From: a virus
DNA length: 64,000 nt
Virus record (IMG/VR): IMGVR_UViG_3300033047_000016
Direction: 5' to 3' (one strand)
The translations under genes and the position numbers were made by a program. Below are positions 6,471 to 64,000 of this stretch, in pieces. Every line of letters starts with the position of its first letter. Positions within the stretch are counted from its first letter, which is position 1. Below the pieces are notes generated by a model. That model was not told the DNA's origin and made no database searches. It saw only the letters and a list, made by a program, of their open reading frames with translations.

Positions 6471-8234
6471 TTAAGCGTCGGAAGTACGAATTGCTGTTGA
6501 CGACCCGCCTGATCCACCTAGAACACCCGTGGTTTCGAATGTCTTGATCGGTGAGGCCCCACCATCCCGGACGCGAATGAACAAGCCCAAATCCGCCAGA
6601 TACACTGAGGTAAATGATTCAGAAGTGGCCCCTGCCAACTTGTCGATATATGTGACATATACATTGACGCCTGCGGTGGCAGAGTCAAGCTCATCTGCAC
6701 CGGAGAAGTCTGCCGATGTAATGGTGAAGGTTGACCCTGTGTATGACGTATATGTCAACAGCCTGTCAAAACCAGAGTCATTAACAACACGTAGCGTTCC
6801 CGCCGCTGGTGTGTCGGTAGGAATTGCTGCCGTAGTGACGACTGCGGTTTCCGTACCAGTAATAAGTGTGGTGTTTAGCGACAGTTGTGCTTTGTCAATG
6901 GCTGAAGCATTGTCTTTTGTAACAAGAATTCTGTCTTCACCAACGACCAGACCTGAAACCGTGAACGTTACATTGTTCGGCGGGGTCCGCTGTGTATTGT
7001 CTAAGTCGAACAATGTGTCGGATGCTGTGAGGTCAGTATCAAGAATACCAAGACCATACGAACCAATGATCGCAGAACCGGTCGAGGCTCCAACAAACGG
7101 CGTTGACAAAGAACGAGAAGTGACTGTAATATTCACCAGCGCCGTAGCAGTGCTTACCCCAGTAATCAATTCGTTGTTTACCGGTGGAATACCTGACAAC
7201 AATTGAATCCACATCTTAGTACCGGCAGTGACACTGTCAATTGCCAGCAATTGTCCAGTACCATTTGGCCACGATACTGCCTCTGGCTCAACAAACGTGC
7301 CAGTAGGTGTGTCAATTTCGACCTCGTGCGTGATACCCCGGAACAGGTCACCAGTCAAGCCGTACAGCGTTTCAGCGGTACCACGACGAGAGGCCCACTT
7401 GAGGCGCTCGTAGAAGTCGTTGATGGTCTGTGTGCCGACGGTCCAGTTCGAGTAGTAGAATTCGTTTACAGTGTCGCCCGTAACGTCAATCGCGCTGTAG
7501 CCTTCATTACTGTTTACAACAGACGTCCACGTCGCCACGGTTACAGCGGCGGTTTGGTTGTTAAGGTCAGTCGCGCTGTAGCCTTCATTACTGTTTACAA
7601 CAGACGTCCACGTCGCCACGGTTACAGCGGCGGTTTGGTTGTTAAGGTCAGTCGCTTCAGACAGGGCCAAAACGTTGTTGCCTCGGGAAGTACCGTTGAT
7701 TGAGAATTCGCCGAATGTGAACAAGAATTCACGGTTGAGTCCAAGCAGACGTCGCCCATCAATATCCGTACCAGCGGTACGCGTCTTGACCATGAATCTG
7801 TGTGAAATTCCTGCCGCAGCGTCGGCATTGAATCCGGCAGGGGTTAGGTCATTCCAAAAGTCATTTGCCAATACGGCACCGTCTTGGTGGATGATGATGA
7901 ATACTGGATTACCAAAGTTTACGATACCATCCCAAATGTCGTCGCCACCCGTTTGGATGATCGAGCCATCATAAAGATGCTCAGCCGACGTCTGGTCAAT
8001 GTTATAACCATTCAGGAGCGTGATGATGTTATCAGTCGAACGGTCTGACGGCGTCAGAGACGAAATGTCAAGCAGATCATCGCCAGCCGCCAAGGCGTCG
8101 TCAGCAAAGTCTTGCAGCGCTCTGTGAAATTCGATAACTGTCGCATAGGTCGGTGAACCGCCTGTGTGTGCGTTACCGATGTAACGAATGTCCCCATTCG
8201 TGCCAATGGTCCAGTCTAGTGCGTCAAAAGCCAT
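6471..8234 (-). CDS. Virion structural protein (fibre-like) with internal 27-aa duplication
   Basis: 587 aa T/G-rich; ATDLNNQTAAVTVATWTSVVNSNEGYS occurs twice. Confidence 0.65.
   Translation of the reverse strand: MAFDALDWTIGTNGDIRYIGNAHTGGSPTYATVIEFHRALQDFADDALAAGDDLLDISSLTPSDRSTDNIITLLNGYNIDQTSAEHLYDGSIIQTGGDDIWDGIVNFGNPVFIIIHQDGAVLANDFWNDLTPAGFNADAAAGISHRFMVKTRTAGTDIDGRRLLGLNREFLFTFGEFSINGTSRGNNVLALSEATDLNNQTAAVTVATWTSVVNSNEGYSATDLNNQTAAVTVATWTSVVNSNEGYSAIDVTGDTVNEFYYSNWTVGTQTINDFYERLKWASRRGTAETLYGLTGDLFRGITHEVEIDTPTGTFVEPEAVSWPNGTGQLLAIDSVTAGTKMWIQLLSGIPPVNNELITGVSTATALVNITVTSRSLSTPFVGASTGSAIIGSYGLGILDTDLTASDTLFDLDNTQRTPPNNVTFTVSGLVVGEDRILVTKDNASAIDKAQLSLNTTLITGTETAVVTTAAIPTDTPAAGTLRVVNDSGFDRLLTYTSYTGSTFTITSADFSGADELDSATAGVNVYVTYIDKLAGATSESFTSVYLADLGLFIRVRDGGASPIKTFETTGVLGGSGGSSTAIRTSDA
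7490..7655. repeat. Exact in-frame 81-bp tandem duplication
   Basis: Copies start at 7490 and 7571. Confidence 0.95.
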
Positions 8235-30207: not shown

Positions 30208-30477
30208 GGTGAAGCCCTTTCTATGTTGTGTAGGCGAGCAGTTTTACATGATGCCCAGCATAAGGTCAAAACAGAATTAACTGCCCTAACTCCACCACCA
30301 TGCCAAGTCTGGGGCATGGACCAAAGTTCCCGGTTACGCGTCCGGGGTGCATCTGACGTGTGCACCGCTCTGTTTATATCGCCGATCCGATTTTTTAAAT
30401 TACCCTCGAATTACAGGCTTACGGTCGGTTGTCAAGGGCGCTCCATTTAAAGTATGCGCCGCCGGTTCCGCAAAATA

Positions 30478-30885
30478 AGGTGAGGGATTCTGTTGCTAGG
30501 TTCCCTCGGACCCCCTCACTGATCGGCGTCTGCATTTAATCCTTACGGATTAAGCTGCGATTGCCATTCCAGTAGGTGCTGCATTTACATTTGCTGCATT
30601 TACTTAAGTTCACAGTCCTAAGACTATTTGCCCAGATAACGTTTAGGCCAACCCGACACGCCGCTTTCCCTATTCCATCCTGTCGATCCTAGTTCGCCCC
30701 CATCAAAAGACCCTTTCGAGGCATCGCCAGAATACCCCGCATGGAGCACCTAACCTCTTCCCTCTCCGCGAGAAACGGATGTGAGCGTAATGTCTCTCCC
30801 TCGTAAGGGCCTTATGGTGGAGGCGTCGGGTACTGCCCCCGAGTCCAGAAATGTCTTCACGATTGAAGATATACGTGTGTTTCGT
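30478..30885 (-). ncRNA. ssrA: Two-piece (circularly permuted) tmRNA; tag AANVNAAPTGMAIAA
   Basis: Acceptor piece ...GACTCGGGGGCAGTACCCGACGCCTCCACCA ends at 30815; coding piece starts GGGGGCGAACTAGGATCGAC at 30701 (G3-U70); tag ORF 30597-30550 ends AIAA-stop; AACCTAGCAACAGAA motif. Confidence 0.92.
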
Positions 30886-30940
30886 ACGAACCAATATAGA
30901 GTGATTCGTTTAGTATGTCAACCTCTGAAAAGCCTCAAAG

Positions 30941-32359: not shown

Positions 32360-33228
32360 AGTAGCCTGAGAATACAGCGTACAGTGAGAACCTTCTGGAC
32401 CGTACCAAACCCGTTTCACAGGGCATGTTAATCCTTCTTCCACATGCGTGCCGAAGCTACACACGTAGTCCTCAATGGTGCGATTTATAAAGGTCTCGCG
32501 TTTGACCTGTCACCATGTGCTACTCGTCTGTTGATCCTCCGCCTGCCTTCCGACAGTTATTCACCGCTAAGCGCTTACGTTTTCTCTTCAAACAAACATC
32601 GTCGCCTTGCGAGCTATGATGCACCGTGTTCCAAAAGGCACGGTATTAACCACCTTTCACACATGACCGAACTAGTCTTTTGCTTTTATATGACGTGAAG
32701 GATTTGAACCCTCTCCGACAGCGTTGAAAGCTGTTGCTCTACCAATGAGCTAACGAAGTTAACCCCAAAGATGTGCTAGTCCGATTGCTCCGAAGGTTTT
32801 TGACCCTAAGAATACAACACACCTCATGTCTTTCGGCTTGCGACCTAATTAACGGCTCTTCAGGTCTCCGGGGATTATCTCCCCTTATTCCCTTGAACTG
32901 CATGCTGCCCTCTGCCGCGAAGCATCGAACTAGTCATGCCACCTATTGATCATCATCGCTCGTCCGGCTGGCATGTCATGAGCGCAGTCGCCAAACTGCT
33001 TCTATCCACCCTTTTGGGGCTTCAATTATCCTTTCGGACACATGACCCAGACTTACCGACTATCGCCACTCTGGTAAGTGACGCACAACGCTACGGATAT
33101 TCCCGGCGTCGTCGATCTAGGCTTGCATAAATGGACTGTTTCCAGCGGATACTTGGGAAGCACCCTTTGGGCCTGTTGCCAGACTTACCCTTGAAGACCT
33201 CATGCGGCCTTATTCCCGAAGGAACTCC
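32360..33228 (-). ncRNA. GOLLD-like large structured RNA (~870 nt) with embedded tRNA-like domain
   Basis: Own promoter TTGACA-17-TAGAAC (33260-33232); ORF-free; many GNRA/UUCG hairpins; blocks GUGUGUUGUAUUC..GCACAUC, GCAAAAGACUAG, GAAAGGUGGUUAAUAC, CGUAAGCGCUUAGC, GAGUAG, GGUUCUCA..UAUUCUCAGGC recalled as GOLLD-like; tRNA-island context. Confidence 0.65.
32690..32759 (-). pseudogene. tRNA-like domain with TCA (opal-reading) anticodon inside the GOLLD-like RNA
   Basis: GCTC-ATTGGTA-GAGC, ACAGC-TTTCAAC-GCTGT, GAGGG-TTCAAAT-CCTTC; acceptor stem only 3 bp, no CCA. Confidence 0.7.
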
Positions 33229-43040: not shown

Positions 43041-43279
43041 TATGAGCGAGTCCATTATGCCAACCCTTTGGTGCAAAGGGCGGCAAGGGTCGCAACCGCG
43101 AACACATAGAAGGCGGCTGGGTATACCTGCGCCAGTACCTGCGCCTGCTGCAAGATGTCGGGGTTTGCTGTAATGAATTCCATTATCTCAGTTCCTTGTT
43201 TAGCGTTTCGTTAAATTCAGAATAAGGGGTAAGGCGATTCGGGTCAACCCATAAAATGCACATTCTGCTAAATTCTTTT

Positions 43280-43414
43280 GTTCCCCATTTGTTCTCTGCG
43301 TTTTCTCTTTGTTCACCTTTTGTTCTCCTTTTGTTCTTTAGATTGGGAACAAAAGGTGAACAAAGGGGGAACAAAAGGTGAACGGCGAGAACAAAACGTG
43401 AACAAAGGGTGAAC
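43280..43414. repeat. Palindromic array of alphaproteobacterial LexA (SOS) boxes: 3x GTTC-N7-GTTC then 5x GAAC-N7-GAAC
   Basis: GTTC at 43280, 43291, 43311, 43322, 43333; GAAC at 43347, 43358, 43369, 43380, 43389, 43400, 43411. Confidence 0.8.
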
Positions 43415-43456
43415 ACGCCAGACAAAGGAAATTGGCGGGTTTCCCCGCCTTTTTCC

Positions 43457-43669
43457 TTATATGTCTTTTAAGCGGCTGTCATATCCCGTTGGGCCTTCCT
43501 GCCAAGCGATCATCCGGGCTTTTGCCTCAGTGCTTCCAGTATCGGCGCGGATCAAGCTAACGTGTGCGTCAAAGTCATTTCCGCTTGCTTTTGCTTTAAG
43601 AAAGTTTTGAAAGTGCATTGCGTCTTGTGCGTCGCGGTTGGTGGCGGTTGTGAGAATGATGCGGTTCAT
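43457..43669 (-). CDS. Small early hypothetical protein
   Basis: RBS and early promoter upstream. Confidence 0.65.
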   Translation of the reverse strand: MNRIILTTATNRDAQDAMHFQNFLKAKASGNDFDAHVSLIRADTGSTEAKARMIAWQEGPTGYDSRLKDI

Positions 43670-43752
43670 GTTGCTATTCCTTGTTTAGCGTTTCTGATAA
43701 CCCTTTCTTGCATAGCCGGTGATTCTGGTCAACCCATAAAATGCACATTCTG

Positions 43753-43989
43753 CTAAATTCTTTTGTTGAGGCGACTCCATCTGATATTGTCCCGGATATT
43801 GGCGGCGCGGCGGCTGGCGAGCCAATACACCGCCAGTGCAAGGCCGCAGGCGACGGTTGCCGCCAATGCGGCGCTAACCCCTATCAGGGCCGCGCAGGGC
43901 AGGTCTATCCCCATGCTCTCGACTATGGCAAGCAAGGCCAGATCAGTTTCATAAAAAGGCGCGGTTGGGGTTGTGCAAGCTGTATACAT
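43753..43989 (-). CDS. Small membrane protein
   Basis: TM helix. Confidence 0.55.
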   Translation of the reverse strand: MYTACTTPTAPFYETDLALLAIVESMGIDLPCAALIGVSAALAATVACGLALAVYWLASRRAANIRDNIRWSRLNKRI

Positions 43990-44302
43990 GATTCAGCCCT
44001 TTCCATTTGTGCGGCTGGCAATGATAGAGGCGAACGATTCGCCGTCCATGGCACGGGCCAATTCAGCGGGGTTGCGCGGTGTCAGTATTTCGACGCTCTC
44101 AGTGATTTCGATTTCTTTGGCCATTGTCTCAGTTCCTTGTTTTGTTTCAGTCCGGGCGGGCCGCTTTACCCCGCCCCGGTTCTTCCCCTTGTGCAGTCCG
44201 CCGGGGTAGCGGCTGGCGGGTTCTAATCCGCTCTATACCCTCAATCTACAGGCAAGGATGATTCGGGTCAACCCATAAAATGCACATTCTGCTAAATTCT
44301 TT

Positions 44303-44598
44303 TTAAACGTCGATTGCGTGGGTGTTGCTGATAACAACCGCAAATTCTTTGGGTTCATTTGCCGCCAGCCATGTCAGGGCATCAAGGTGATTCTTGCTAC
44401 CCTCTTGCGCCCTCTTGATCACAAAGGCGTGGGCCATAGGATCGCCGGAAAACTGGGCGCTTTCATCGTGCCGCTCCAAGCGCCACGTTGTCCCATCCGG
44501 GTTGCCGCTTGCGTCGCTGATAAACCATCCCTCACTAAGCGCCGATTCATAATCATAGTTTTTTGACGGGTCCGCGCGATATTCCTTTGGGCCGCTCA
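44303..44598 (-). CDS. Small early hypothetical protein (MSGPKEY...)
   Basis: RBS AAGGAA; coupled to upstream ORF. Confidence 0.6.
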
Positions 44599-44824
44599 TG
44601 GCTTCATTCCTTTCATAGTTTGCGCCACAGTGTCGGCAAGGTCCAGAGTGAACCCGGAAACAAAATTGGTTGCCAGAGGGGAAACAAACATTACGAACAG
44701 GGTAATGACCATTATGGGGAAGAGATATTTCATTGTCGCGTTCCTTGTTTTGCGTTTCTGATAACCCTTTCTTGCATAGCTGGTGATTCGGGTCAAGCCC
44801 TAAAATGCACATTCCGCTAAACTT

Positions 44825-45065
44825 TTACATTCCCTCCAAATCTCGCATAATCTCGGCATCGGTTGGCGCTTTCCAGTTCAGGATTTTCCCGGTTACAACG
44901 TCAATTTCCAGAATGACATAATCCCCATAGTGTTGCCCCGGCATAAAGCTGGGCACGTATCCGTCACCGGCTTGGATAGTATCCCCCGATTCGTTGGTCG
45001 CAACCGCGTTGCAAAGGTCGCTACACTTGGCAGTGATTTCGATCACAGTGATTTTCCGTTTCATA
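44825..45065 (-). CDS. Conserved phage early protein (AKCSD...DGYVP.FMPG.HYGDY..L.ID..TG.ILNW)
   Basis: Recognisable conserved motif. Confidence 0.7.
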
Positions 45066-45263
45066 TTAGAATTCCTCGCCTTGGTCTTGCTCACATGAAA
45101 GCCAGCCCTCGCCCATCAGGGCATAAGCCGGAGTCAACTCTTCAAGCAATTCGACGCAATCGCTACCGGTCAAATTTGTGTCCAGCGCGTAAACGTAATT
45201 CCCGCCTTGCCCCTCAAGATCACCGCTTTGAATGAACAGTGTGAAAAAAAGTGCAAACTTCAT
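45066..45263 (-). CDS. Small hypothetical protein
   Basis: 65 aa, RBS AAAGG. Confidence 0.55.
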   Translation of the reverse strand: MKFALFFTLFIQSGDLEGQGGNYVYALDTNLTGSDCVELLEELTPAYALMGEGWLSCEQDQGEEF

Positions 45264-45410
45264 TTTGTGGCCTTTCCGGCGGGGGTTTTCCCCGCCTTTG
45301 TTTGGGTGGTGCCCCTCGCCTTTACCGGGGTCCGCGTTCTCTTTTGATAACCCTTTCTCGCATGATTCGCGGCATGTGTCAACAAGAAATACACATGCCG
45401 CTAAACTATG

Positions 45411-45797
45411 TCAGGCGGCGCGGGCGCTTGCGCCCATCGCCTCCACATAGCGGGCGATGTTTTCGCCCTTGTGGATACCATTGCAGAACAGGAAAAATTC
45501 CACATCATCGGCACGGGTTGTCAGCCCTTCCCCGTCCAGTTCCCACCGCAAGGCGGTTTCAAAGGAAACGCCAAACGACTCCGCGTGCGTATCAAGGCGA
45601 TCATTCAGGGCGACCAGTGCCGCGCGCTCTTGCACGTCCGCGTCACGCATCACGTGCACAAGGTCAGTGCACAAGGCGTTAAACTCGCGCACCTGTTGTA
45701 GGGTTGTCAGTGCGTCCCAGCGGTTGCCGTCTACAGGGCGCACACCGTGCACATCTTTGTGCAGGTCGCTGTAAGTTCCGAAGTCAATCCGTTCCAT
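45411..45797 (-). CDS. Early hypothetical protein (YSDLHKDVHGVRP)
   Basis: Conserved-looking SDL.KD..G.RP motif; RBS AAGGAA. Confidence 0.7.
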   Translation of the reverse strand: MERIDFGTYSDLHKDVHGVRPVDGNRWDALTTLQQVREFNALCTDLVHVMRDADVQERAALVALNDRLDTHAESFGVSFETALRWELDGEGLTTRADDVEFFLFCNGIHKGENIARYVEAMGASARAA

Positions 45798-45870
45798 TGT
45801 CTCAGTTCCTTGGTTTGTGTTTCCGATAACCCTTTGTCGCATGACAGGCGATTCGGGTCAAGCGAATAAG

Positions 45871-46062
45871 TTTAGCAGAATGTAAATATTGTTCTTGACC
45901 ATTGCCACCGAATCGCCTATTCTGATTATGAGGTCAGGAACACCGGGTGCGGTTAGTAGGGGACGGGTTGGGAGTGCGGAGTCCGCCCTTTAAAAAAAAG
46001 GAACAAACAAGGAGCAAAACGTGAACAAATAGGGAACGATAAAAAGAGAACAAAACGTGAAC
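45871..46062 (+). repeat. Module copy 1: upstream motif + promoter + G-rich ~60-nt element + LexA boxes
   Basis: TTGACC-17-TATTCT; GAGGTCAGGAACACCGG...GGGACGGGTTGGGAGTGCGGAGTCCG; GAAC at 46001, 46023, 46034, 46048, 46059. Confidence 0.75.
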
Positions 46063-46118
46063 ACTTTGAGGCAAAGAAAAGGCGCGCCGGTTAAGGCGCG
46101 CCTGATTTGTTGCGGGTT

Positions 46119-47018
46119 CTACTTCCCCTTAAACCCCGCAAGGCTCTCTGCAAGGGTCCACAGGTCGCGGTTAAGCTTAGCCGCGCCACCTATACCCGTG
46201 ACGGCTTGCACCTTGGCACGGCGCGCCTTGCCGTTGCTTCCAGTGATCCAGCCGCGTTGTCCGCCCTTGATGCAATTTTCTTGCACAATATTCAAGGCGT
46301 GCCACAGGGTGTTATGGCGATCCTCGGAACGGCGCGCCCGCAACAAGTCCAGCGGTTGAACCGCCGCGCGGGTTTCATTCAAAACCGGGCGTTCATCCGA
46401 GTCCAGATCATACGCCGCCGGGAACCGCAACAAGTGAGCGGCGCGGGCGTAAATCATCGCCTCGTCACGGTCCAGCCGGATTGCCTTGAATTCATCAATT
46501 TGTGCCAGCACGCGGGGGGCCATTTCAAGGATTGTTTCCGCGCCATCTTTCACCGACTCGATCACACCCTTGCCATTGTGACGGACACTTACCGGCGCGA
46601 AGGTGTCGCCAGTGAAAAGGCCATTGAGGCAAACAAAGCGAAACACGCCAGCGATCATTTTATAAGCGCTTGTGCCGTCGTTTGCATTGGTAAGGATGAT
46701 TTCAAAGGCGCGGCCCTCTGTATTGGTAAGGGAACGGTGACGCAAGCGCAGCATGTGCCGGGTAAACCGTTCCTTGCCTTCAATGCGGGTCCGCGCCTGT
46801 TGTGCGTATACCGGTTGAAAGTCAGCCGCGCGCAGTGCTGTAAGCACCTTGCAAGTGGCGATAGGCACAAAGCGGTCAGACCGCGACTTATGCGCCTCAG
46901 TGGCAAACAGAGCCGGAACCGCCGCCGCCAGTTCAGAGTCTGACAAAGGAGTCACGCCGTCAGGGGATGCAATCGCGCCACCGTTTGACATTCCGTTCAT
47001 GAAGCGAGTGTAAGACAT
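46119..47018 (-). CDS. DUF932-family protein
   Basis: P..FA...H.SRS.RF..I.T, F.RH.LRLR, EIIL.N.NDG.SAY...AG.FR.VC.NGL, LW...N.VQEN..KGG. Confidence 0.9.
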   Translation of the reverse strand: MSYTRFMNGMSNGGAIASPDGVTPLSDSELAAAVPALFATEAHKSRSDRFVPIATCKVLTALRAADFQPVYAQQARTRIEGKERFTRHMLRLRHRSLTNTEGRAFEIILTNANDGTSAYKMIAGVFRFVCLNGLFTGDTFAPVSVRHNGKGVIESVKDGAETILEMAPRVLAQIDEFKAIRLDRDEAMIYARAAHLLRFPAAYDLDSDERPVLNETRAAVQPLDLLRARRSEDRHNTLWHALNIVQENCIKGGQRGWITGSNGKARRAKVQAVTGIGGAAKLNRDLWTLAESLAGFKGK

Positions 47019-47280
47019 TTTATATTCCTTTTTGTTTGGGCTGGCGTTTTGCCTTCCCTACAATCTTTATTGCATAGGCCAAAGTGATTCGCAAGATTTA
47101 AATTGCGTCAAGCTAAAGTTTTCTTTCTACTGAACACTCTTTAGCAAAGTTAATTTTGTGGGTTGACAGCACCTGATTCGGTTTGGTATAATGGATTGAC
47201 GACGTATGCGCACACGGCGAATCGTTATAGGTCGTCAGTCCATTTTAGCACAACGAATCAAGTGCGGTCAAGTAAATAAG

Positions 47281-47449
47281 TTTAGCAGAATGTTAATTTT
47301 GTTCTTGACTGCCAGCCCCAAATCACTGTAATCTAAATGTGAGGTCAGGAACACCGGATGCGGTTAGTAGGGGACGGGTTGGGAGTGCGGAGTCCGTTCT
47401 CTTTTTTTTTGGCGGGCAAAAAGAACAAAACGTGAACACTTTGCTGAAC
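47281..47449 (+). repeat. Module copy 2 (promoter + G-rich element + T-tract + LexA box)
   Basis: TTGACT-17-TAATCT; element 47341-47396; GAAC 47423/47434. Confidence 0.75.
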
Positions 47450-47485
47450 AAAAAAGCCCGCGTTAGCGGGCCGATTCGTTCTGTT

Positions 47486-47785
47486 TCAGATGTTAACCAC
47501 CCTGTCAAGGTTAAAGGAAAAGCCAAACTTTTCCGGGCGCGTGTTGTGAAAAAACACGTTGCCGTGATGGGCCAGCGCCTGCCGCGCGTTTTCTGAGCGC
47601 TTGAGGGATTCGGGCGTCGCCTTTGGGCCTGCCGAGCCACCTACAAGCCGCTTGTAAACCTTTGGCATGCCGGTGCGTCGCACCACATCGCCGTTCTTTT
47701 TGGCGAAAACCACTGTGGTGATTTTTGCGCCGCGTTTTGCCAGCTTGGCTTGGACGGTCGCGCGGGGGAGAAATTCGGTTTTCAT
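47486..47785 (-). CDS. Small basic early protein (WYL_2/SH3-like, V.F.KKNG.V.R)
   Basis: TVVFAKKNGD.....G...FSF.LDRV. Confidence 0.6.
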   Translation of the reverse strand: MKTEFLPRATVQAKLAKRGAKITTVVFAKKNGDVVRRTGMPKVYKRLVGGSAGPKATPESLKRSENARQALAHHGNVFFHNTRPEKFGFSFNLDRVVNI

Positions 47786-48172
47786 GTTGTTCCCTTTCCG
47801 GGGGTTGCGGGTTGGCTTGTTTGCCTTCCCTATATCTTTGATAGCATAAGCAAAATGATTCGCATAGAGCTAATTTCACTTATGCTAAAGTTTTTTCACT
47901 TAAGCCTTCCAGCCTTTCCCGCCTTCAAATTCGCGCCGATTCCCTTTGGCGCGCCGCGCGGCCTTGTGCTGTTCTTTGGCACTGTGGCGGTCGCGAGTCT
48001 TGTCGCGGTTAGTTGATTCATCTTGCTGAGTCCGTTGCTCAAATTTTGGCTGTTTCATCTTTTCTTTCCCTTCAGATTGGCAGGGGAATCATCCCCCGCC
48101 TTGTTTCAAAAATGCCCTAAAACTACATATAAGGCAAGCAATAATAAAATGAGTCCTATAGCGATTCCTTTC

Positions 48173-48919
48173 CTAGTTTGCGCGCCGCTCAAACGCCGCG
48201 ACCTTGCTTGTCATTCCATGCGCGGGAATAAAAACGCTTGCCCGATTCGGGCTGGACAATCCACCGCAGGCAAGGCACGCCGCGCAATTTGTTTTTGCGC
48301 CCGCCTCTTTTGACGCTGGACAAAGGAATTCGCCTTTAACAAGCGACTCCGCCTTTGTGCCGACGCGAAAGGTTCGATACCCCAACGCTTGCGCCCATTG
48401 CGACTCGTGCACGTTGTCAGCGCTTGCCATACAATAGCGCGCAAAGCGTGAATCGCATTCTTTCCACTGGTGAGTGTAACCCGTACCGCGCGCCGCAAGT
48501 TTAAGGATACGGTCCCAAACATGGAACGGGACCGCCGCAGGGTCACCATAAGCGCCGAGTCGAACGTTGCGACCCGCCAGCAAGGCTTGCGCGTTATCCC
48601 GCTTTATACGCTTGTAAACGCCGCGTTTTGCCGTGCCAAAGATATTCAAAGGCGCTTGAAAAATTGTCACGTAACAGGACCGCCCCACGTTTTTACCGTC
48701 CACAATTGTGCCCCGATGTGGACACGCGCCGCAGATGCTGGCATCCTCGCCAGTTTGGACCGCCGTTGTTGGTTTCACGTCTGCCCGAAGAATCCAAGTC
48801 TGAACCAGATTGCCCGTTTTTGCGTTAGTCGATCCCGTTTTGAGACCGGTCGCAATCAACATAATAGGCGCGCCGTCAATCCGACTCTTGCCTTCCCAAA
48901 GTATTGCACCGTTTGCCAT
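48173..48919 (-). CDS. Conserved Cys-rich phage protein (gp88-like)
   Basis: N.KTG.LVQTWIL, ICG.CPHR, CYV, VRLG.YGDPA, GYTHQW, MASAD, C..C.AC. Confidence 0.75.
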   Translation of the reverse strand: MANGAILWEGKSRIDGAPIMLIATGLKTGSTNAKTGNLVQTWILRADVKPTTAVQTGEDASICGACPHRGTIVDGKNVGRSCYVTIFQAPLNIFGTAKRGVYKRIKRDNAQALLAGRNVRLGAYGDPAAVPFHVWDRILKLAARGTGYTHQWKECDSRFARYCMASADNVHESQWAQALGYRTFRVGTKAESLVKGEFLCPASKEAGAKTNCAACLACGGLSSPNRASVFIPAHGMTSKVAAFERRAN

Positions 48920-49067
48920 TTTGTATTCCTTTCAAGAATAGCGTTTCGATGATTCGTTTATTGCATATCCTGAAAAGTATAGCAAGGAAAACTTTGCGCT
49001 TGCTATACTTTCCCCTATATGCTAGAAACGAATCAAGTTAACCGGCTAACAGGGAAGGACCCGCGCC

Positions 49068-49232
49068 ATGGAAAACTTTACTACTCTTCACAATGCGAGC
49101 GATGCAGACATATGCGCGTATTTCGATACGTTGCCGAATCTGACTGTCATGGAATTGGCGCGCCGCACTGGTAAGACTGTTCAGGAAGTCAAGCGGATTC
49201 TGATCCCAAAAAATTCAAGGGGGGAGTCGTGA
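49068..49232 (+). CDS. Small HTH-like protein, 54 aa
   Basis: LTVMELARRTGKTVQEVKRIL; AAGGA RBS; divergent promoter. Confidence 0.6.
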   Translation: MENFTTLHNASDADICAYFDTLPNLTVMELARRTGKTVQEVKRILIPKNSRGES

Positions 49233-49426
49233 TGAAACCACTTTTTTACGACGTCCCTTGTGTCAATCATGTGTCGGAAAAAACCGGCATGCTGTATATG
49301 ATTTTTGACTGCCCATTTGCCGCGATGTCTTTTGCCGCGCGCAATGGGTTGCTGGTCAATCGTCGCCAATGGGATTCAGGTATTTTTGCCCGCACGCGAA
49401 TCGGTGATCTTAGGGGCGTTTACTGA
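49229..49426 (+). CDS. Small hypothetical protein
   Basis: Coupled to upstream ORF. Confidence 0.5.
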   Translation: MMKPLFYDVPCVNHVSEKTGMLYMIFDCPFAAMSFAARNGLLVNRRQWDSGIFARTRIGDLRGVY

Positions 49427-49581
49427 TGGCGCGCCCTATTGAATTGTCAAGTCATTACCAAAAAGGATTCCGTGACGCGTCGCGGGGTTCTTTTTATGAT
49501 CCGCCCTATTGCGGACACATTCAAAAAGAGGAATACCTTGCCGGGTTCGATGCAGCTAGAAACAATTTAGCAGAATGCTAA
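49426..49581 (+). CDS. Small protein with RMF-like pattern, 51 aa
   Basis: YQKGFRDASRG...PPY......EEYLAGF. Confidence 0.45.
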   Translation: MARPIELSSHYQKGFRDASRGSFYDPPYCGHIQKEEYLAGFDAARNNLAEC

Positions 49582-49776
49582 TTTTGTTCTTGACAGCCCG
49601 CCCCGAATCACTGTAATCTGAATGTGAGGTCAGGAAAGGCGCGCCGCCCGCGCCCGGTACGGGACGGTTTAGGAGTGCGGAATCTGTTCTCGAAAACAAA
49701 AGAACAAAAGGGGAACAAACCGTGAACAAAAGGTGAACAGAACAAAAGGGGAACAAACCGTGAACAAATGGTGAAC
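49566..49776 (+). repeat. Module copy 3 with six perfect LexA boxes
   Basis: TTGACA-17-TAATCT; element 49626-49686; GAAC at 49702, 49713, 49724, 49735 and 49740, 49751, 49762, 49773. Confidence 0.8.
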
Positions 49777-49837
49777 AGATTTCTAACCTTCGTGTGTGTC
49801 AAATCCGCAACAGTTGCATTCTCTCCAGAAAAATCGT

Positions 49838-50038
49838 CAGGAATCAAAAACGGCGAATCGTCTAAATAAAAATGACGACTCGTCAAAACCGTCGCGCGTC
49901 AAAACGACGACGCGTCAAAACAAAAACGACGACGCGTCAAAACAAAAACGGCGAATCGTCAAAACAAAAACGCGAGAGAGTCAAAACAAAAATGAGTGAT
50001 CGTCAAAAGAAAAATGCTCTCCCGTCAAAACGAATCAC
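49838..50038. repeat. 22-bp-period iteron-like array (GTCAAAACAAAAACG...)
   Basis: GTCAAAA at 49914, 49936, 49958, 49980, 50002, 50024 (exact 22-bp spacing) plus 49882 and 49898. Confidence 0.85.
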
Positions 50039-50290
50039 CCTCACCACCAGCCGAATCAGTCCAGCACATCGCCCGCTACGCGGGCCTTCAGCAGTACACA
50101 CTCAGATGCGTGCTTCGCACCCACCTTCGTCAGTGTTGGTAACCCGCAAACCAATAGCTCAGCAAACAGCCGAGCACACCGCAAGCAACCCTCTGGCTTG
50201 TCAGAGCAACCGATCAGCCTAAGAACTGAACAGCAGGATAACCTAACAAGTGAGCACGTTGATACTGTCCCGCGTCAGCGGGCACGTTGA

Positions 50291-53459: not shown

Positions 53460-55112
53460 TTATGCTACGCCGTGTCCGCTGTTGACTCTGAGCGTGCCTC
53501 GTTGGGTGCGCCCTTTCTTGGTGTTCGCAAGGTATTGTGACACCGTGTCAACATAGTCGTCGTTCTTGGCGTTGGGAAACTTCAGCATTTCATCTTCGAT
53601 ATCTGCGATCCAATCGACGCCGCGTTCTGGTAGTAAAACCAACCCTGCCGCGAACATGGGTGTGACCCCGTCGAAACGGAATTGTTTGGAGTTGTTATTG
53701 GTGCTGATCGGAAGGACCGGCGCGGGTCCGGGGTTGTCCTTGCGCACCTGAATATATTGGGTGCCAGCGCCTTTGTCTTCCACCAACACTTGATCGACAT
53801 TGAATGTCCGAGCCAAATTGTCAATCCATTTTGTCATGGTATTGAATTCCTCACGGCATCGTACCGCGTGAATCAGGTAATGCTTTTTGTCGAACGTCTC
53901 GATCCATATAGTCGCGGCTGTCCAGTCAGAACGTTGTGTGTTCTTTTCAGCACAGTCAACAGATAATGTGGTGCGGCGAATGATCTTCTTGAATAGGCTC
54001 CCATCCTTACGCTTTATGTCTTGTGGCACAGCTTTGTAACGGCTGATGTCAGTACGTTGTAGCACGCCCCCTTCTTCATCGGACGGTTTTCCTTGGTACA
54101 GGCTGTTCCATGACCGGGCTGAGCTATCCAATTTCTTCAGACTATACCATTCGGTACCAAAAACCTCTGGCCACAATCCATCACCAACCACTCGACCTAG
54201 TGGGTCGTCGTCTTCTGCCAGCGCGGGGATATTGATAACCTCCCACGGATACGCTGTTGCACCGTCCGCCATTTTCTGAAGCTCATACCCAATCAGATCG
54301 TCTTCATGCCAACGTGTGGCCACAACAAAAATAGGTGACCCCGGCATCGGTCGTGTACCAAAGTCGTCCTCGAACCATTCATGCAGCTTACGGCGCATGG
54401 TCGGGCTTTCGGCGTCTTCACGAGAAGCGATTGGGTCGTCAATGGCACCAATGTCAGCACGGAAACCAGAGATACCCTGACCCACACCAATGGCCTTGTA
54501 ATAGGCTACGTTACTGTTTGAGAATTCAAAATAATCAGCAGCAGATGAGGACGCAGACAGGCTGCGTTCAGGAAATACTTCACGGTATCTCGGCTGATTA
54601 ATTAAATTTCTTACCGGTTTTCCGAGGCGGTCTTTAGCAAAAGTTTGTGTGTGTGCACCCTGCAACCAACGATCATCGACACGTCTTCCGAGGTGCCAAG
54701 CCGCAAAACGAATTGACGCGTAAGAGCTTTTTGCACTCCCCGGCGGCATCGAAATTGCCAATCGCATTATTTCTTTATTGTGAATTGCTTCCATGTAGTC
54801 GATCAAAAACTCATGGTGCATTGCCGGTGGTTCATGTCGAAACATAAATTCGCAGAACGGACTAAACCTGAACTGTGCTGCATAACGAAGCTTTTCATCA
54901 TATTGCGTGTCAATGGTTTTATGTAGAACATCAATGGCTTTGTACTGCGAAGTTAATTCCGTCGTCCCAGTCATGCTCTCCATAGCGTGCTTGGTTCCCA
55001 CGTCAAGAGGTTCGCCCCGGCTGATACTATTGTCGAGCTTCCCTTTCAAATTGGACAGTTGTTTCAGTGCCTTACGATATTCTTCGCGTTCAGGTATCGT
55101 TATCAGGGTCAT
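53460..55112 (-). CDS. terL: Terminase large subunit
   Basis: ISMPPGSAKS (Walker A), GFRAD...IDDP (Walker B), TRWHEDDL.G, LYQG.P, VEDKG.G, FPN.K.DD.VD. Confidence 0.93.
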   Translation of the reverse strand: MTLITIPEREEYRKALKQLSNLKGKLDNSISRGEPLDVGTKHAMESMTGTTELTSQYKAIDVLHKTIDTQYDEKLRYAAQFRFSPFCEFMFRHEPPAMHHEFLIDYMEAIHNKEIMRLAISMPPGSAKSSYASIRFAAWHLGRRVDDRWLQGAHTQTFAKDRLGKPVRNLINQPRYREVFPERSLSASSSAADYFEFSNSNVAYYKAIGVGQGISGFRADIGAIDDPIASREDAESPTMRRKLHEWFEDDFGTRPMPGSPIFVVATRWHEDDLIGYELQKMADGATAYPWEVINIPALAEDDDPLGRVVGDGLWPEVFGTEWYSLKKLDSSARSWNSLYQGKPSDEEGGVLQRTDISRYKAVPQDIKRKDGSLFKKIIRRTTLSVDCAEKNTQRSDWTAATIWIETFDKKHYLIHAVRCREEFNTMTKWIDNLARTFNVDQVLVEDKGAGTQYIQVRKDNPGPAPVLPISTNNNSKQFRFDGVTPMFAAGLVLLPERGVDWIADIEDEMLKFPNAKNDDYVDTVSQYLANTKKGRTQRGTLRVNSGHGVA

Positions 55113-55665
55113 TACTCAAGTCCTCAAGGTGTTGCAAAATAGCAACAGGTTCAACTTCTGGTGGAATTATATCTATGAGTTCTGGCTCAGACAATTCCCT
55201 TGTGGCGGAAATTACCTTAGCCATATTCTCCAACAGAGTGTTAACTTCACCGATTTTTATTCTGGATTCATCATCTTCTGGAACGATTGCTGTACCTGTT
55301 CCTTCAATTTCTACCATCTTTTGTATATTAGCGACAGCCGAATTTGCTGGCGCAAACTGCCCAGCTTCTACCGCATTTAAATATATTTTCTTAAAAGCAT
55401 TAGCACACCAAGTCATTGTCAGCCCCATTTCTCTTAGGGATTTAAATGTCTCTTCATTAGGCTCATCCATCGCATCATTAATGCGCTGATATATTTCAGT
55501 CTTCAATTCTTTTACGCGTCTTTTAACAACCGGAGAGGTTGCCAATCGGGACGCCGCTGAATCATTAGGGGCGTACCCAGCTAGTGTGTACGCTTCTTTT
55601 TGCTTAAGACCTTTGGCGATCTGATAAGCAAATGCTTCATGTTTTGGGTTATCAATTGTTGGCAT
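55090..55665 (-). CDS. terS: Terminase small subunit
   Basis: N.KHE.FA....G....EAY..AGY......ASRL...V..RV.EL; directly upstream of terL. Confidence 0.8.
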   Translation of the reverse strand: MPTIDNPKHEAFAYQIAKGLKQKEAYTLAGYAPNDSAASRLATSPVVKRRVKELKTEIYQRINDAMDEPNEETFKSLREMGLTMTWCANAFKKIYLNAVEAGQFAPANSAVANIQKMVEIEGTGTAIVPEDDESRIKIGEVNTLLENMAKVISATRELSEPELIDIIPPEVEPVAILQHLEDLSNDPDNDT

Positions 55666-59692: not shown

Positions 59693-59815
59693 GTTCTGTG
59701 GTCTTCGTGTTCTGTGGTCTTCGTGTTCTGTGGTCTTCGTGTTCTGTGGTCTTCGTGTTCTGTGATCGTTTGTGTTCTTCGTGTTCGTGTTCATTGTTCG
59801 TGGTCTTCGTGTTCA
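59693..59815. repeat. 16-bp tandem repeat GTTCTGTGGTCTTCGT (4.5 perfect copies, then degenerate)
   Basis: Copies at 59693, 59709, 59725, 59741, 59757. Confidence 0.92.
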
Positions 59816-59990
59816 TCGACTGTATCTTGGTGGACATACACGACAAGGCTTTGGTCGTCAAGGTATTTTGGTGTGTTAACGACGACATCCCATTAACATT
59901 GAACAAAAACAATAAGTTACACAAAAATAACGTGACCAACGACACCGTTTTTAGTGTATTTTCTGACGAGTGCGAACAGGAATTAGTCCC

Positions 59991-63696: not shown

Positions 63697-64000
63697 ATGA
63701 AGAAGACAATTTTCGCGGCATTGGTTTTTGCTGCACTTTCAATCGCACCAGCAAACGCAGGCAACCTCAGTGATGGCCTCGCCGATCCTGTTGTAACGAC
63801 ACCAACATGCACCCGGTGGTTTATTCACCCGAAGCTGTTTTCGTGGCAGGGGAAGTGTAAAGTTGGACACAACACGGCAACCACATCGAAATCTGGCGAA
63901 TCAGACGGATGGGTAACGGTGCCCGGCAACGGCAATCCCGGCAACGGCAATCCCGGCAACGGCAATCCCGGCAACGGCAATCCCGGCAACGGCAATCCCG
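63697..64000 (+). CDS. Exported protein with (GNGNP)n tandem repeat, truncated by window
   Basis: Signal peptide MKKTIFAALVFAALSIAPANA; 15-bp repeat CCCGGCAACGGCAAT from 63922. Confidence 0.75.
   Translation, partial: MKKTIFAALVFAALSIAPANAGNLSDGLADPVVTTPTCTRWFIHPKLFSWQGKCKVGHNTATTSKSGESDGWVTVPGNGNPGNGNPGNGNPGNGNPGNGNP

What the first reader, a model, noticed from the sequence alone, without database searches (positions are those of the whole stretch)
43280..49776. Four arrays of consensus alphaproteobacterial LexA boxes in the early region: a candidate DNA decoy ('LexA sponge')
Seen: GAAC/GTTC tetramers recur at exact 11-bp spacing in four non-coding patches (43280-43414, 46001-46062, 47423-47437, 49702-49776). 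By my count they give 8+2+1+6 = 17 perfect, partly overlapping GAAC-N7-GAAC / GTTC-N7-GTTC sites with spacers such as AAAACGT and AAAAGGT. Established: GTTC-N7-GTTC (GAAC-N7-GAAC) is the SOS box of alphaproteobacterial LexA, and normal operators carry 1-2 boxes over the promoter. Inference: none of these boxes overlaps a -35/-10. Three arrays lie downstream of a short transcript and one lies between a terminator and an upstream element. They sit in what looks like the first-injected or terminally repeated DNA. That fits a protein-free decoy that titrates host LexA and switches on SOS (recA, repair, division arrest) at injection, amplified as the phage replicates. Alternatives are LexA-mediated looping or roadblock control of early genes (a lysis-lysogeny sensor), or A-rich RNA motifs.
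Basis: partly seen in the sequence, partly recalled or inferred. Interest (0 to 1): 0.92.

Follow-up and report, generated by a model that had tools for sequence, protein, structure and literature searches.

The report
LexA-box-like repeat arrays in roseophage
A large phage of marine Rhodobacteraceae carries four promoter-less arrays of an 11-bp repeat that matches the binding site of its host's DNA-damage repressor LexA; the same repeat recurs in about a hundred uncultured phage contigs, so it is a real protein-docking element, but which protein binds it and why is untested.

Summary
GAAC-N7-GAAC occurs 19 times in the window against 2.6 expected, and 17 of these lie in the four patches. The unit is an 11-bp repeat, GAACAAA-n-S-G-K, arranged in blocks of 2-4 half-sites that always end on GAAC.

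The host is very probably an alphaproteobacterium. Relatives infect Ruegeria, Phaeobacter and Rhodobacter, and the phage carries an alpha-type tmRNA. Spacers and flanks fall within the range of real alphaproteobacterial lexA, recA and uvrA operator-zone sites.

The arrays avoid -35/-10 hexamers, are unstructured as RNA, and one box sits between two convergent terminators. This points to a DNA-level docking function.

New findings:
- The same heterogeneous repeat class occurs in at least 119 IMG/VR contigs (reversed-motif control: 18), with unrelated terminases, often as inverted arms.
- One metagenomic relative (L018) keeps arrays at syntenic places.
- Five cultured relatives and 78 further metagenomic loci carrying a conserved neighbouring gene lack them.

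Best reading (about 0.4): docking arrays for host LexA, which sequester it or sense its state. At most 12 dimers fit per genome, so titration "at injection" is implausible; it would need replication. Main rival (about 0.3): iterons for an unidentified protein. The lineage-specific DUF932 gene next to array A is a weak lead.

An earlier first-stage reader of this scan also noted the first array (e1-5705395, an overlapping window of the same genome).

The parts
43280..43336 (-). Left arm of array 1: five GAAC half-sites (blocks of 2 and 3) read on the - strand. It ends 9 bp before the upstream element of the - strand promoter.
43347..43414 (+). Right arm of array 1: seven GAAC half-sites (blocks of 4 and 3). 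With the left arm it forms a near-perfect palindrome.
43434..43449 (.). Bidirectional terminator hairpin bordering array 1; it ends the - strand gene 43457-43669.
43219..43271 (-). Promoter of the TTTAGCAGAATG / TTGAC / TATTCT family, immediately beyond array 1.
45872..45992 (+). Unit A: promoter (upstream element, TTGACC-17-TATTCT) followed by the conserved ~60-nt RNA element.
46001..46062 (+). Array A: two perfect boxes plus decayed units. The syntenic array in L018 has eight perfect boxes.
46080..46103 (.). Bidirectional terminator between array A and the DUF932 gene.
46119..47018 (-). DUF932 gene. It is the only gene of this region shared with the array-bearing relative L018 and missing from 12 array-less relatives. 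It is a weak candidate for the binder.
47282..47401 (+). Unit B: promoter and RNA element, ending in its own hairpin plus a run of nine T.
47423..47437 (+). Single box B (GAACAAAACGTGAAC), lying between two convergent terminators. It is identical, with its flanks, in L018.
47455..47472 (-). Terminator of the - strand gene 47486-47785, facing box B.
49567..49690 (+). Unit C: promoter and RNA element.
49702..49776 (+). Array C: two blocks of four half-sites, 1 bp apart. The first block (37 bp) is identical in L018.

Best explanation
The four patches act as DNA, not RNA. They are helically phased multi-site docking platforms for a protein that reads GAAC tetramers 11 bp apart, and the most likely reader is the host SOS repressor LexA.

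The arrays sit in transcriptionally quiet gaps of the early region: between convergent terminators, behind short early transcripts, or just upstream of a promoter. They therefore do not work as classical operators.

One genome copy can hold at most about 12 LexA dimers. Any sequestration of LexA, and the partial SOS derepression that would follow, would therefore grow with phage copy number rather than act at injection. Bound LexA could also form barriers or loops that report whether the host is DNA-damaged.

Shown here: the arrays, their phasing, their placement, their recurrence in other phages and their fit to the LexA motif. Inferred: LexA binding and every downstream effect.
For: - Enrichment is about 7-fold over shuffles and confined to four non-coding patches.
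- The core equals the published alphaproteobacterial LexA motif, a direct repeat GTTC-N7-GTTC (PMC8565304; PMC9578287).
- The host is very probably alphaproteobacterial. The nearest phages infect Ruegeria, Phaeobacter and Rhodobacter, and the phage carries an alpha-type tmRNA at 118 bits.
- Operator-zone sites from sampled Alphaproteobacteria read GAACA-N6-GAACA with A-rich spacers, for example GAACAAAAATAGAACA upstream of recA.
- On a weight matrix of the non-core positions the array sites score -4 to +7. Genuine sites have a leave-one-out median of 5.2 (IQR -1.4 to 9.1). The two stray window sites score -7 and -9.
- Blocks always end on GAAC and restart after 0-3 bp, so the tetramer pair rather than a full 11-mer bounds the unit.
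- The same heterogeneous repeat class occurs in at least 119 IMG/VR contigs against 18 for the reversed motif. Sixty of 98 distinct loci belong to this class.
- These contigs have unrelated large and small terminases. A shared host factor explains that more simply than a shared phage protein.
- The nearest cultured relatives of three of four sampled terminase lineages are phages of Pelagibacter, Roseobacter, Paracoccus and CbK-like alpha phages.
- L018, at 69-75% nucleotide identity, keeps arrays at syntenic places. A 37-bp block and box B are identical.
- The arrays are unstructured as RNA (z = 0.65, -1.2, 0.3), and box B lies between convergent terminators.
Against: - No binding data exist.
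- Spacers are not free. AAA at positions 5-7 is 81-92% conserved, and the same few spacers (AAACCGT, AAAACGT, AAAAGGT) recur across unrelated contigs. This is more than the GAAC core LexA is known to need.
- Positions 10-11 are G and T/G in the arrays but mostly T and A in lexA and recA operators. Two of four uvrA-zone sites do carry T before GAAC.
- Block sizes show no preference for even numbers; triples are commonest.
- The arrays are absent from five cultured relatives that infect the same host family and from 78 of 80 metagenomic loci that carry the neighbouring conserved gene.
- Hosts of the other array-bearing contigs are unknown. Two look-alike arrays lie on contigs binned with Bacteroidota, whose LexA motif is different.
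- According to a Caulobacter study, 97% of real SOS promoters carry a single box. Arrays have no precedent as LexA targets.
Confidence: 0.4

Rival explanations
1. The repeats are iterons. They would be cooperative binding sites for a phage-encoded (or unknown host) DNA-binding protein that serves replication initiation, partition or genome-end processing. The match to the LexA core would then be a coincidence of a short motif. The adjacent DUF932 protein is one candidate binder.
For: - The arrays are tandem, helically phased and often inverted, as in iteron origins and centromeres.
- The whole 11-mer, spacer included, is conserved.
- The first array is a perfect long palindrome.
- In other contigs the arrays sit near terminase genes and contig ends, typical sites of ori or pac regions.
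- DUF932 is the only gene in 42-59 kb shared by the window and L018 and missing from 12 array-less relatives.
- DUF932-like genes occur in 8 of 119 array loci, against 1 of 84 relatives' loci and 1 of 18 control loci.
Against: - No recognisable initiator, ParB/ParR or helix-turn-helix gene is linked to the arrays.
- DUF932 is absent from most array loci. The eight positive loci probably represent only two lineages.
- The confident DUF932 model (pLDDT 93) shows no DNA-binding fold match; best Z is 7.2, within noise. Its conserved His/Cys/His/Glu residues look enzyme-like.
- One motif shared by phages with unrelated terminases and gene sets argues against a private phage protein.
- A core replication or packaging site should be present in close relatives, but it is not.
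Confidence: 0.3
2. The arrays act through DNA shape alone. Phased A-tracts would give curved DNA that serves as an upstream activating or insulating element. Alternatively they are expanding and contracting repeats with little function.
For: - An A3-4 tract recurs every 11 bp.
- Some arrays abut promoters: 43280 next to the upstream element, and several IMG/VR arrays run into TTGAC.
- Array A is partly decayed in the window compared with L018, which shows turnover.
Against: - GAAC is invariant by construction of the search. However, the bases after the A-tract (C at 67%, then G/A, and never C before GAAC) are also constrained.
- A 37-bp block is identical in a relative that is about 25-30% diverged.
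- The reversed motif, which has the same A-tracts, is at least 6 times rarer.
Confidence: 0.1
3. The repeats work in RNA. Arrays A and C would form the unstructured A-rich 3' part of short early transcripts that soak up an RNA-binding protein such as Hfq.
For: - A promoter plus a conserved RNA element lies upstream of three arrays, and a hairpin lies downstream of array A. The same layout is found in L018.
- The arrays are unstructured and A-rich.
Against: - Box B lies after the RNA element's own terminator and before a convergent terminator.
- Array 1 lies between a terminator and a promoter and occurs in both orientations.
- Thirty-two of 98 loci have both orientations in one cluster.
- Relatives keep the RNA element without any array.
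- Only 2-3 consecutive A-R-N triplets occur per unit (read from the sequence).
Confidence: 0.05
4. The arrays are pac-type recognition sites wrapped by the small terminase ring.
For: - In IMG/VR loci the commonest neighbours are terminase genes. Putative small-terminase genes lie a median of 119-131 bp away.
- The window's large terminase lies 3.7 kb from array C.
Against: - The window's candidate small terminase (55090-55665) has no homologue among the small terminases of array-bearing contigs, and those belong to at least two unrelated families.
- Relatives with homologous terminases (for example L337 and L338, 82-83% identical large subunit) have no arrays.
- Four dispersed arrays are not expected of a single pac site.
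Confidence: 0.05

Closest known systems
SOS (LexA) boxes of Alphaproteobacteria, GTTC-N7-GTTC / GAAC-N7-GAAC
   Same: Same tetramer, same direct-repeat geometry and 7-bp spacer, an A after GAAC and an A-rich spacer start, as in the recA-type sites sampled here (PMC8565304).
   Different: Real operators are single (97% in Caulobacter) and overlap promoters of damage-inducible genes. Here there are 2-8 overlapping boxes per patch, none on a promoter. Positions 10-11 prefer G-T/G instead of T-A.
Iteron arrays of phage and plasmid origins and centromeres (P4 ori/crr octamer TGTTCACC; R1 parC with ten 11-bp repeats bound by ParR). Recalled from memory, not checked here.
   Same: Short direct repeats phased with the helix, in two opposed or flanking clusters, lying in non-coding DNA. 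GGTGAACA within the unit is the complement of the recalled P4 octamer.
   Different: No cognate initiator or ParR-like gene was found nearby. The motif is shared by phages with unrelated gene sets and is absent from close relatives.
Mobile elements that exploit LexA (SOS boxes in phage, integron and colicin promoters; PMC9578287, section 12)
   Same: A mobile element carries sites for the host SOS repressor.
   Different: The known cases are single operators that control a promoter, mostly in temperate elements. Here the sites are promoter-less arrays, and no lysogeny gene was identified in the region examined.
pac regions bound by small terminase (SPP1/SF6 type). Recalled from memory.
   Same: Phased repeats and bent DNA near terminase genes.
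   Different: There is no co-variation with the small-terminase family, and the arrays are dispersed.

Membership tests
Alphaproteobacterial LexA (SOS) box | Direct repeat GAAC-N7-GAAC (GTTC-N7-GTTC) | tested here: met
   17 exact sites in four patches; 2.6 expected in the whole window.
Alphaproteobacterial LexA (SOS) box | Host is an alphaproteobacterium that has LexA | tested here: met
   The evidence is indirect. Relatives infect Ruegeria, Phaeobacter and Rhodobacter, and the phage carries an alpha-type tmRNA. lexA scored over the family cut-off in 93 of 121 sampled Alphaproteobacteria. The actual host is not known.
Alphaproteobacterial LexA (SOS) box | Spacer and flanks resemble those of genuine operators | tested here: inconclusive
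   Array sites score within the genuine range and well above the stray sites. Positions 10-11 differ from lexA and recA sites; uvrA-zone sites allow T before GAAC.
Alphaproteobacterial LexA (SOS) box | Overlaps or abuts the -35/-10 of a damage-inducible gene | tested here: not met
   All boxes lie at least 30 bp from predicted hexamers, between terminators or behind short transcripts.
Alphaproteobacterial LexA (SOS) box | Bound by LexA in vitro or in vivo | not testable with these tools
   Needs EMSA, footprinting or ChIP.
Iteron-type replication origin | Tandem, helically phased direct repeats in non-coding DNA | tested here: met
   Period 11. 481 successive GAAC-to-GAAC distances in the IMG/VR arrays equal 11; the next most frequent distance occurs 20 times.
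Iteron-type replication origin | Cognate initiator gene next to the repeats | tested here: inconclusive
   No Rep, DnaA, primase or helix-turn-helix family among the neighbours. The adjacent DUF932 gene has unknown function and no significant fold match.
Iteron-type replication origin | Conserved among relatives that share the replication module | tested here: not met
   Absent from five cultured relatives and from 78 of 80 metagenomic loci carrying the neighbouring conserved gene (the other of the two close relatives, L333, also shows none); present only in L018.
pac site of small terminase | Motif co-varies with the small-terminase family | tested here: not met
   The same motif lies next to unrelated small terminases. 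The window's candidate has no homologue among them.
ParR/parC-type centromere | Partition ATPase and adaptor genes beside the repeats | tested here: inconclusive
   None was recognised among the ORFs of 42-59 kb that were scanned (Pfam for eleven, PHROGs for ten). The remaining small ORFs were not scanned and stay unassigned.

The most novel reading that the evidence does not exclude
A scattered set of marine phages of Alphaproteobacteria, this one included, carries promoter-less arrays of host LexA boxes as a protein-free DNA decoy. As the genome replicates, the arrays soak up LexA and derepress the SOS regulon without DNA damage. This would give the phage repair capacity for UV-damaged genomes (Weigle-type reactivation) and arrest host division.
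Probability: 0.12. Interest if true: 0.9.

Novelty: new variant of a known kind. Interest (0 to 1): 0.6.

Why it matters
If LexA binds these arrays, apparently lytic phages would be tapping or manipulating the host's DNA-damage circuit with nothing but DNA sequence. That mechanism has not been described.

It would be especially relevant in sunlit surface waters, where both phage and host suffer UV damage. It would also add roughly a hundred uncultured phage contigs to the list of elements that exploit LexA.

If another protein binds, the arrays still define a widespread and easily searchable phage DNA element whose reader is unknown. Either way a single pull-down or gel-shift experiment would decide the question.

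Tried and rejected
- BLAST of array C against the cultured-phage collection found nothing, probably because of low-complexity masking. No survey of cultured phages was therefore possible.
- Five cultured phages related to array-bearing contigs (Pelagibacter Baldr and HTVC023P, Roseobacter CRP-902, Vibrio 1.262.O and KIT05) have no arrays.
- Triple arrays were found in only 2 of 401 sampled Alphaproteobacteria genomes.
- The bacterial-genome scan returned mostly other perfect tandem repeats from many phyla, with different spacers. It says nothing about host range.
- Guessing hosts from Shine-Dalgarno usage was too noisy.
- Block sizes show no even-number preference.
- Nucleotide searches with two array-bearing loci found no close cultured relative.
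- Rfam finds nothing real in 43200-50100. The microRNA hits merely reflect the palindrome.
- No paper in the library holds the 15-mers.
- DUF932: no PADLOC family. The 9-sequence model was unusable. The 135-sequence model is confident but has no significant PDB match by Foldseek or VIA-align; best Z is 7.2, and PsiB, MotA and TnsE-like rows are within noise. Atlas look-alikes are another family of unknown function.
Genome ends and terminal repeats could therefore not be examined.
- Genome G034 (unpublished) was part of the sampled sets only for the tallies. No site used here comes from it.


Full report
**What is there.** GAAC-N7-GAAC occurs 19 times in the window. Shuffles that preserve dinucleotide content give a mean of 2.57 and never more than 7. 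The unit is an 11-bp repeat, GAAC-AAA-n-(C/G)-G-(T/G).

The 26 half-sites form nine blocks of 2-4. Each block ends on GAAC, and the next starts after a linker of 1-16 bp. Patch 1 (43280-43414) consists of two opposed arms that form a near-perfect palindrome (-71.5 kcal/mol, z = -9.1). The single-orientation arrays have no RNA structure (z = 0.65, -1.2 and 0.3).

**Context.** The window belongs to a roughly 147-150 kb siphophage of the DSS3P8 / MD18 / RcXuper / RpAliso / DSS3_MAL1 group, with 70-75% nucleotide identity in patches. It carries 35 tRNA genes, an alpha-type tmRNA and a GOLLD RNA. The host is therefore very probably one of the Rhodobacteraceae.

The region 43-50 kb is packed with promoters of one family: an upstream element TTTAGCRGAATG, then TTGAC, 17 bp, TAnnCT. 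There are seven copies.

Three + strand copies each drive a conserved ~60-nt element that starts GAGGTCAGGAA. It contains a hairpin whose stem covaries, and it is present several times (two to four) in four of the five cultured relatives' loci and in L018; no copy was found in the RcXuper locus. In the window, and only there and in L018, GAAC arrays follow these elements.

Box B lies between the element's own terminator (47381-47401 plus nine T) and the convergent terminator of the next - strand gene (47455-47472). Array A is followed by a bidirectional hairpin that also terminates the DUF932 gene. Array 1 lies between a terminator and the upstream element of a - strand promoter. No box overlaps a -35 or -10 hexamer. 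This placement, together with the lack of RNA structure and the occurrence in both orientations, points to a DNA-level function.

**Spread.** The same motif read backwards found 18.

- Of 98 distinct loci, 60 carry the same heterogeneous spacer set as the window. AAACCGT, AAAACGT and AAAAGGT are the commonest spacers. Thirty-two loci have inverted arms and 14 have several clusters.
- In units that were not part of the search seed, positions 5-7 are A in 81-92% of cases, position 9 is C in 67%, and the base before the next GAAC is never C. 481 successive GAAC distances equal 11; the next most frequent distance occurs 20 times.
- The commonest neighbours are large terminase (43 of 120 loci), putative small terminases (median 119-131 bp away) and portal genes, from several unrelated families.
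- The window's candidate small terminase has no homologue among them.
- Bacterial genomes give mostly other, perfect tandem repeats in many phyla. Only 2 of 401 sampled Alphaproteobacteria carry a triple array.

**Within the phage's own lineage.** The five cultured relatives have no GAACAAA-N4-GAAC arrays. Among 80 IMG/VR loci that encode the conserved 248-aa neighbour gene, only L018 has arrays.

L018 is syntenic at 69-75% nucleotide identity (large terminase, the 248-aa gene, DUF932) and keeps arrays at the places of units A, B and C. The first 37-bp block of array C and box B with its flanks are identical. Array A has eight perfect boxes in L018 but is partly decayed in the window. The arrays are thus maintained in one sublineage and also turn over.

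**Is it LexA?** The alphaproteobacterial LexA motif is the direct repeat GTTC-N7-GTTC (PMC8565304, PMC9578287). I derived operator-zone sites from sampled Alphaproteobacteria.

- Upstream of lexA, 24 of 31 genomes have a site, mostly GAAC(C/T)(A/T)AA(C/G)TAGAACA.
- Upstream of recA, 12 of 30 genomes have one, for example GAACAAAAATAGAACA.
- Near uvrA there are four, two of them with T before the second GAAC.
- On a weight matrix of the non-core positions the array sites score -4 to +7. Genuine sites have a leave-one-out median of 5.2 (IQR -1.4 to 9.1). The two stray window sites score -7 and -9.

Three observations fit a dimer that needs two GAAC 11 bp apart and is supplied by the host: blocks are bounded by GAAC, the motif is shared by phages with unrelated gene sets, and the nearest cultured relatives of three of four sampled terminase lineages are phages of Pelagibacter, Roseobacter, Paracoccus and CbK-like alpha phages.

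Several observations count against it.

- The spacer is more conserved than LexA is known to require.
- Positions 10-11 differ from most genuine sites.
- Triples are the commonest block size.
- Close relatives on the same host family lack the arrays.
- The hosts of the other contigs are unknown, and two look-alike arrays sit on contigs binned with Bacteroidota, whose LexA motif is different.
- In Caulobacter, 97% of SOS promoters carry a single box.

**The sponge idea.** At most 12 dimers can sit on one genome (the sum of floor(n/2) over the nine blocks). From general knowledge, cells hold hundreds of LexA dimers, so derepression at injection is not plausible. It would need tens to hundreds of genome copies. 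A benefit is conceivable: SOS-dependent Weigle reactivation of UV-damaged phage is recalled in PMC9578287. No step of this has been tested.

**Rivals.** A phage-encoded reader cannot be excluded. DUF932 (46119-47018), which lies 57 bp from array A, is the only gene in 42-59 kb that the window shares with L018 and that is missing from 12 array-less relatives. DUF932-like genes occur in 8 of 119 array loci, against 1 of 84 relatives' loci and 1 of 18 control loci.

These eight loci probably represent only two lineages, and most array loci lack the gene. A confident model (pLDDT 93.1) matches no solved fold above noise. The small-terminase, curved-DNA and RNA readings each conflict with specific results listed under the rivals.

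**Verdict.** The LexA reading is the best single candidate, at about 0.4. An unbiased pull-down or a LexA gel shift would settle the matter.

Noticed in passing
window 45931-45992, 47342-47401, 49627-49690 (+); also L001, L002, L003, L005, L018: A conserved ~60-nt promoter-proximal element (GAGGTCAGGAA, a variable hairpin with compensatory changes, then AGTAGGGGACGGGTTRGGAGTGCGGAATCCG, often followed by a T-run). It occurs two to four times in the window and in the loci of four cultured relatives and L018; none was found in the RcXuper locus. It is transcribed convergently to the early - strand genes and has no Rfam match.
   Followed up: partly
window 43271, 43756, 44295, 44820 (-); 45872, 47282, 49567 (+): Seven copies of one early-promoter family with a conserved upstream element TTTAGCRGAATG about 12 bp before TTGAC. 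It may be an UP-like element or an operator.
   Followed up: partly
window 32363-32825 (-): GOLLD RNA (163 bits, above gathering score) with a tRNA embedded at 32689-32759.
   Followed up: no
window 30459-30925 (-): Phage-encoded two-piece (permuted) alpha-type tmRNA with tag peptide AANVNAAPTGMAIAA.
   Followed up: no
window 15802-38327 (-): 34 tRNA genes on one strand (ARAGORN lists 35 genes including the tmRNA).
   Followed up: no
window 49832-50014: A second, different repeat array directly after array C: about 5-8 copies of a 22-bp unit (AAAACGACGAAGCGTCAAAACA) with an internal GACGCGTC palindrome. It looks more like classical iterons than the GAAC arrays do. It was not found at the syntenic place in L018.
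   Followed up: partly
window 59693-59816: Six copies of a 16-bp repeat (GTTCTGTGGTCTTCGT) that produce a GTTC-rich patch unrelated to the 11-bp arrays.
   Followed up: no
window 63922-64000 and 7481-7655: A perfect 15-bp tandem repeat (5.3 copies) running off the window end, and an 81-bp tandem repeat (2.2 copies, 97% identical).
   Followed up: no
window 46119-47018 (-): The DUF932 protein gives a very confident AlphaFold model (pLDDT 93, pTM 0.89) with no significant match in the PDB. His88, Cys130, His147 and Glu247 are invariant, which suggests a metal site or an enzyme. The family has more than 4,300 cluster representatives.
   Followed up: partly
window 48173-48919 (-): A 248-aa Cys/His-rich protein (phrog_2554) is the most conserved gene of the early region. 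354 IMG/VR stretches encode a relative. Its function is unknown.
   Followed up: partly
L146, L150, L152, L163, L176, L179, L181 and others (Acidobacteriota genomes): A conserved element GAACAAATCGAGAACAAATTGGGAACAAAC followed by GAACACCCGTGAA recurs in many Acidobacteriota genomes. Collinsella genomes carry long perfect GAACAAACGGC tandem repeats.
   Followed up: no
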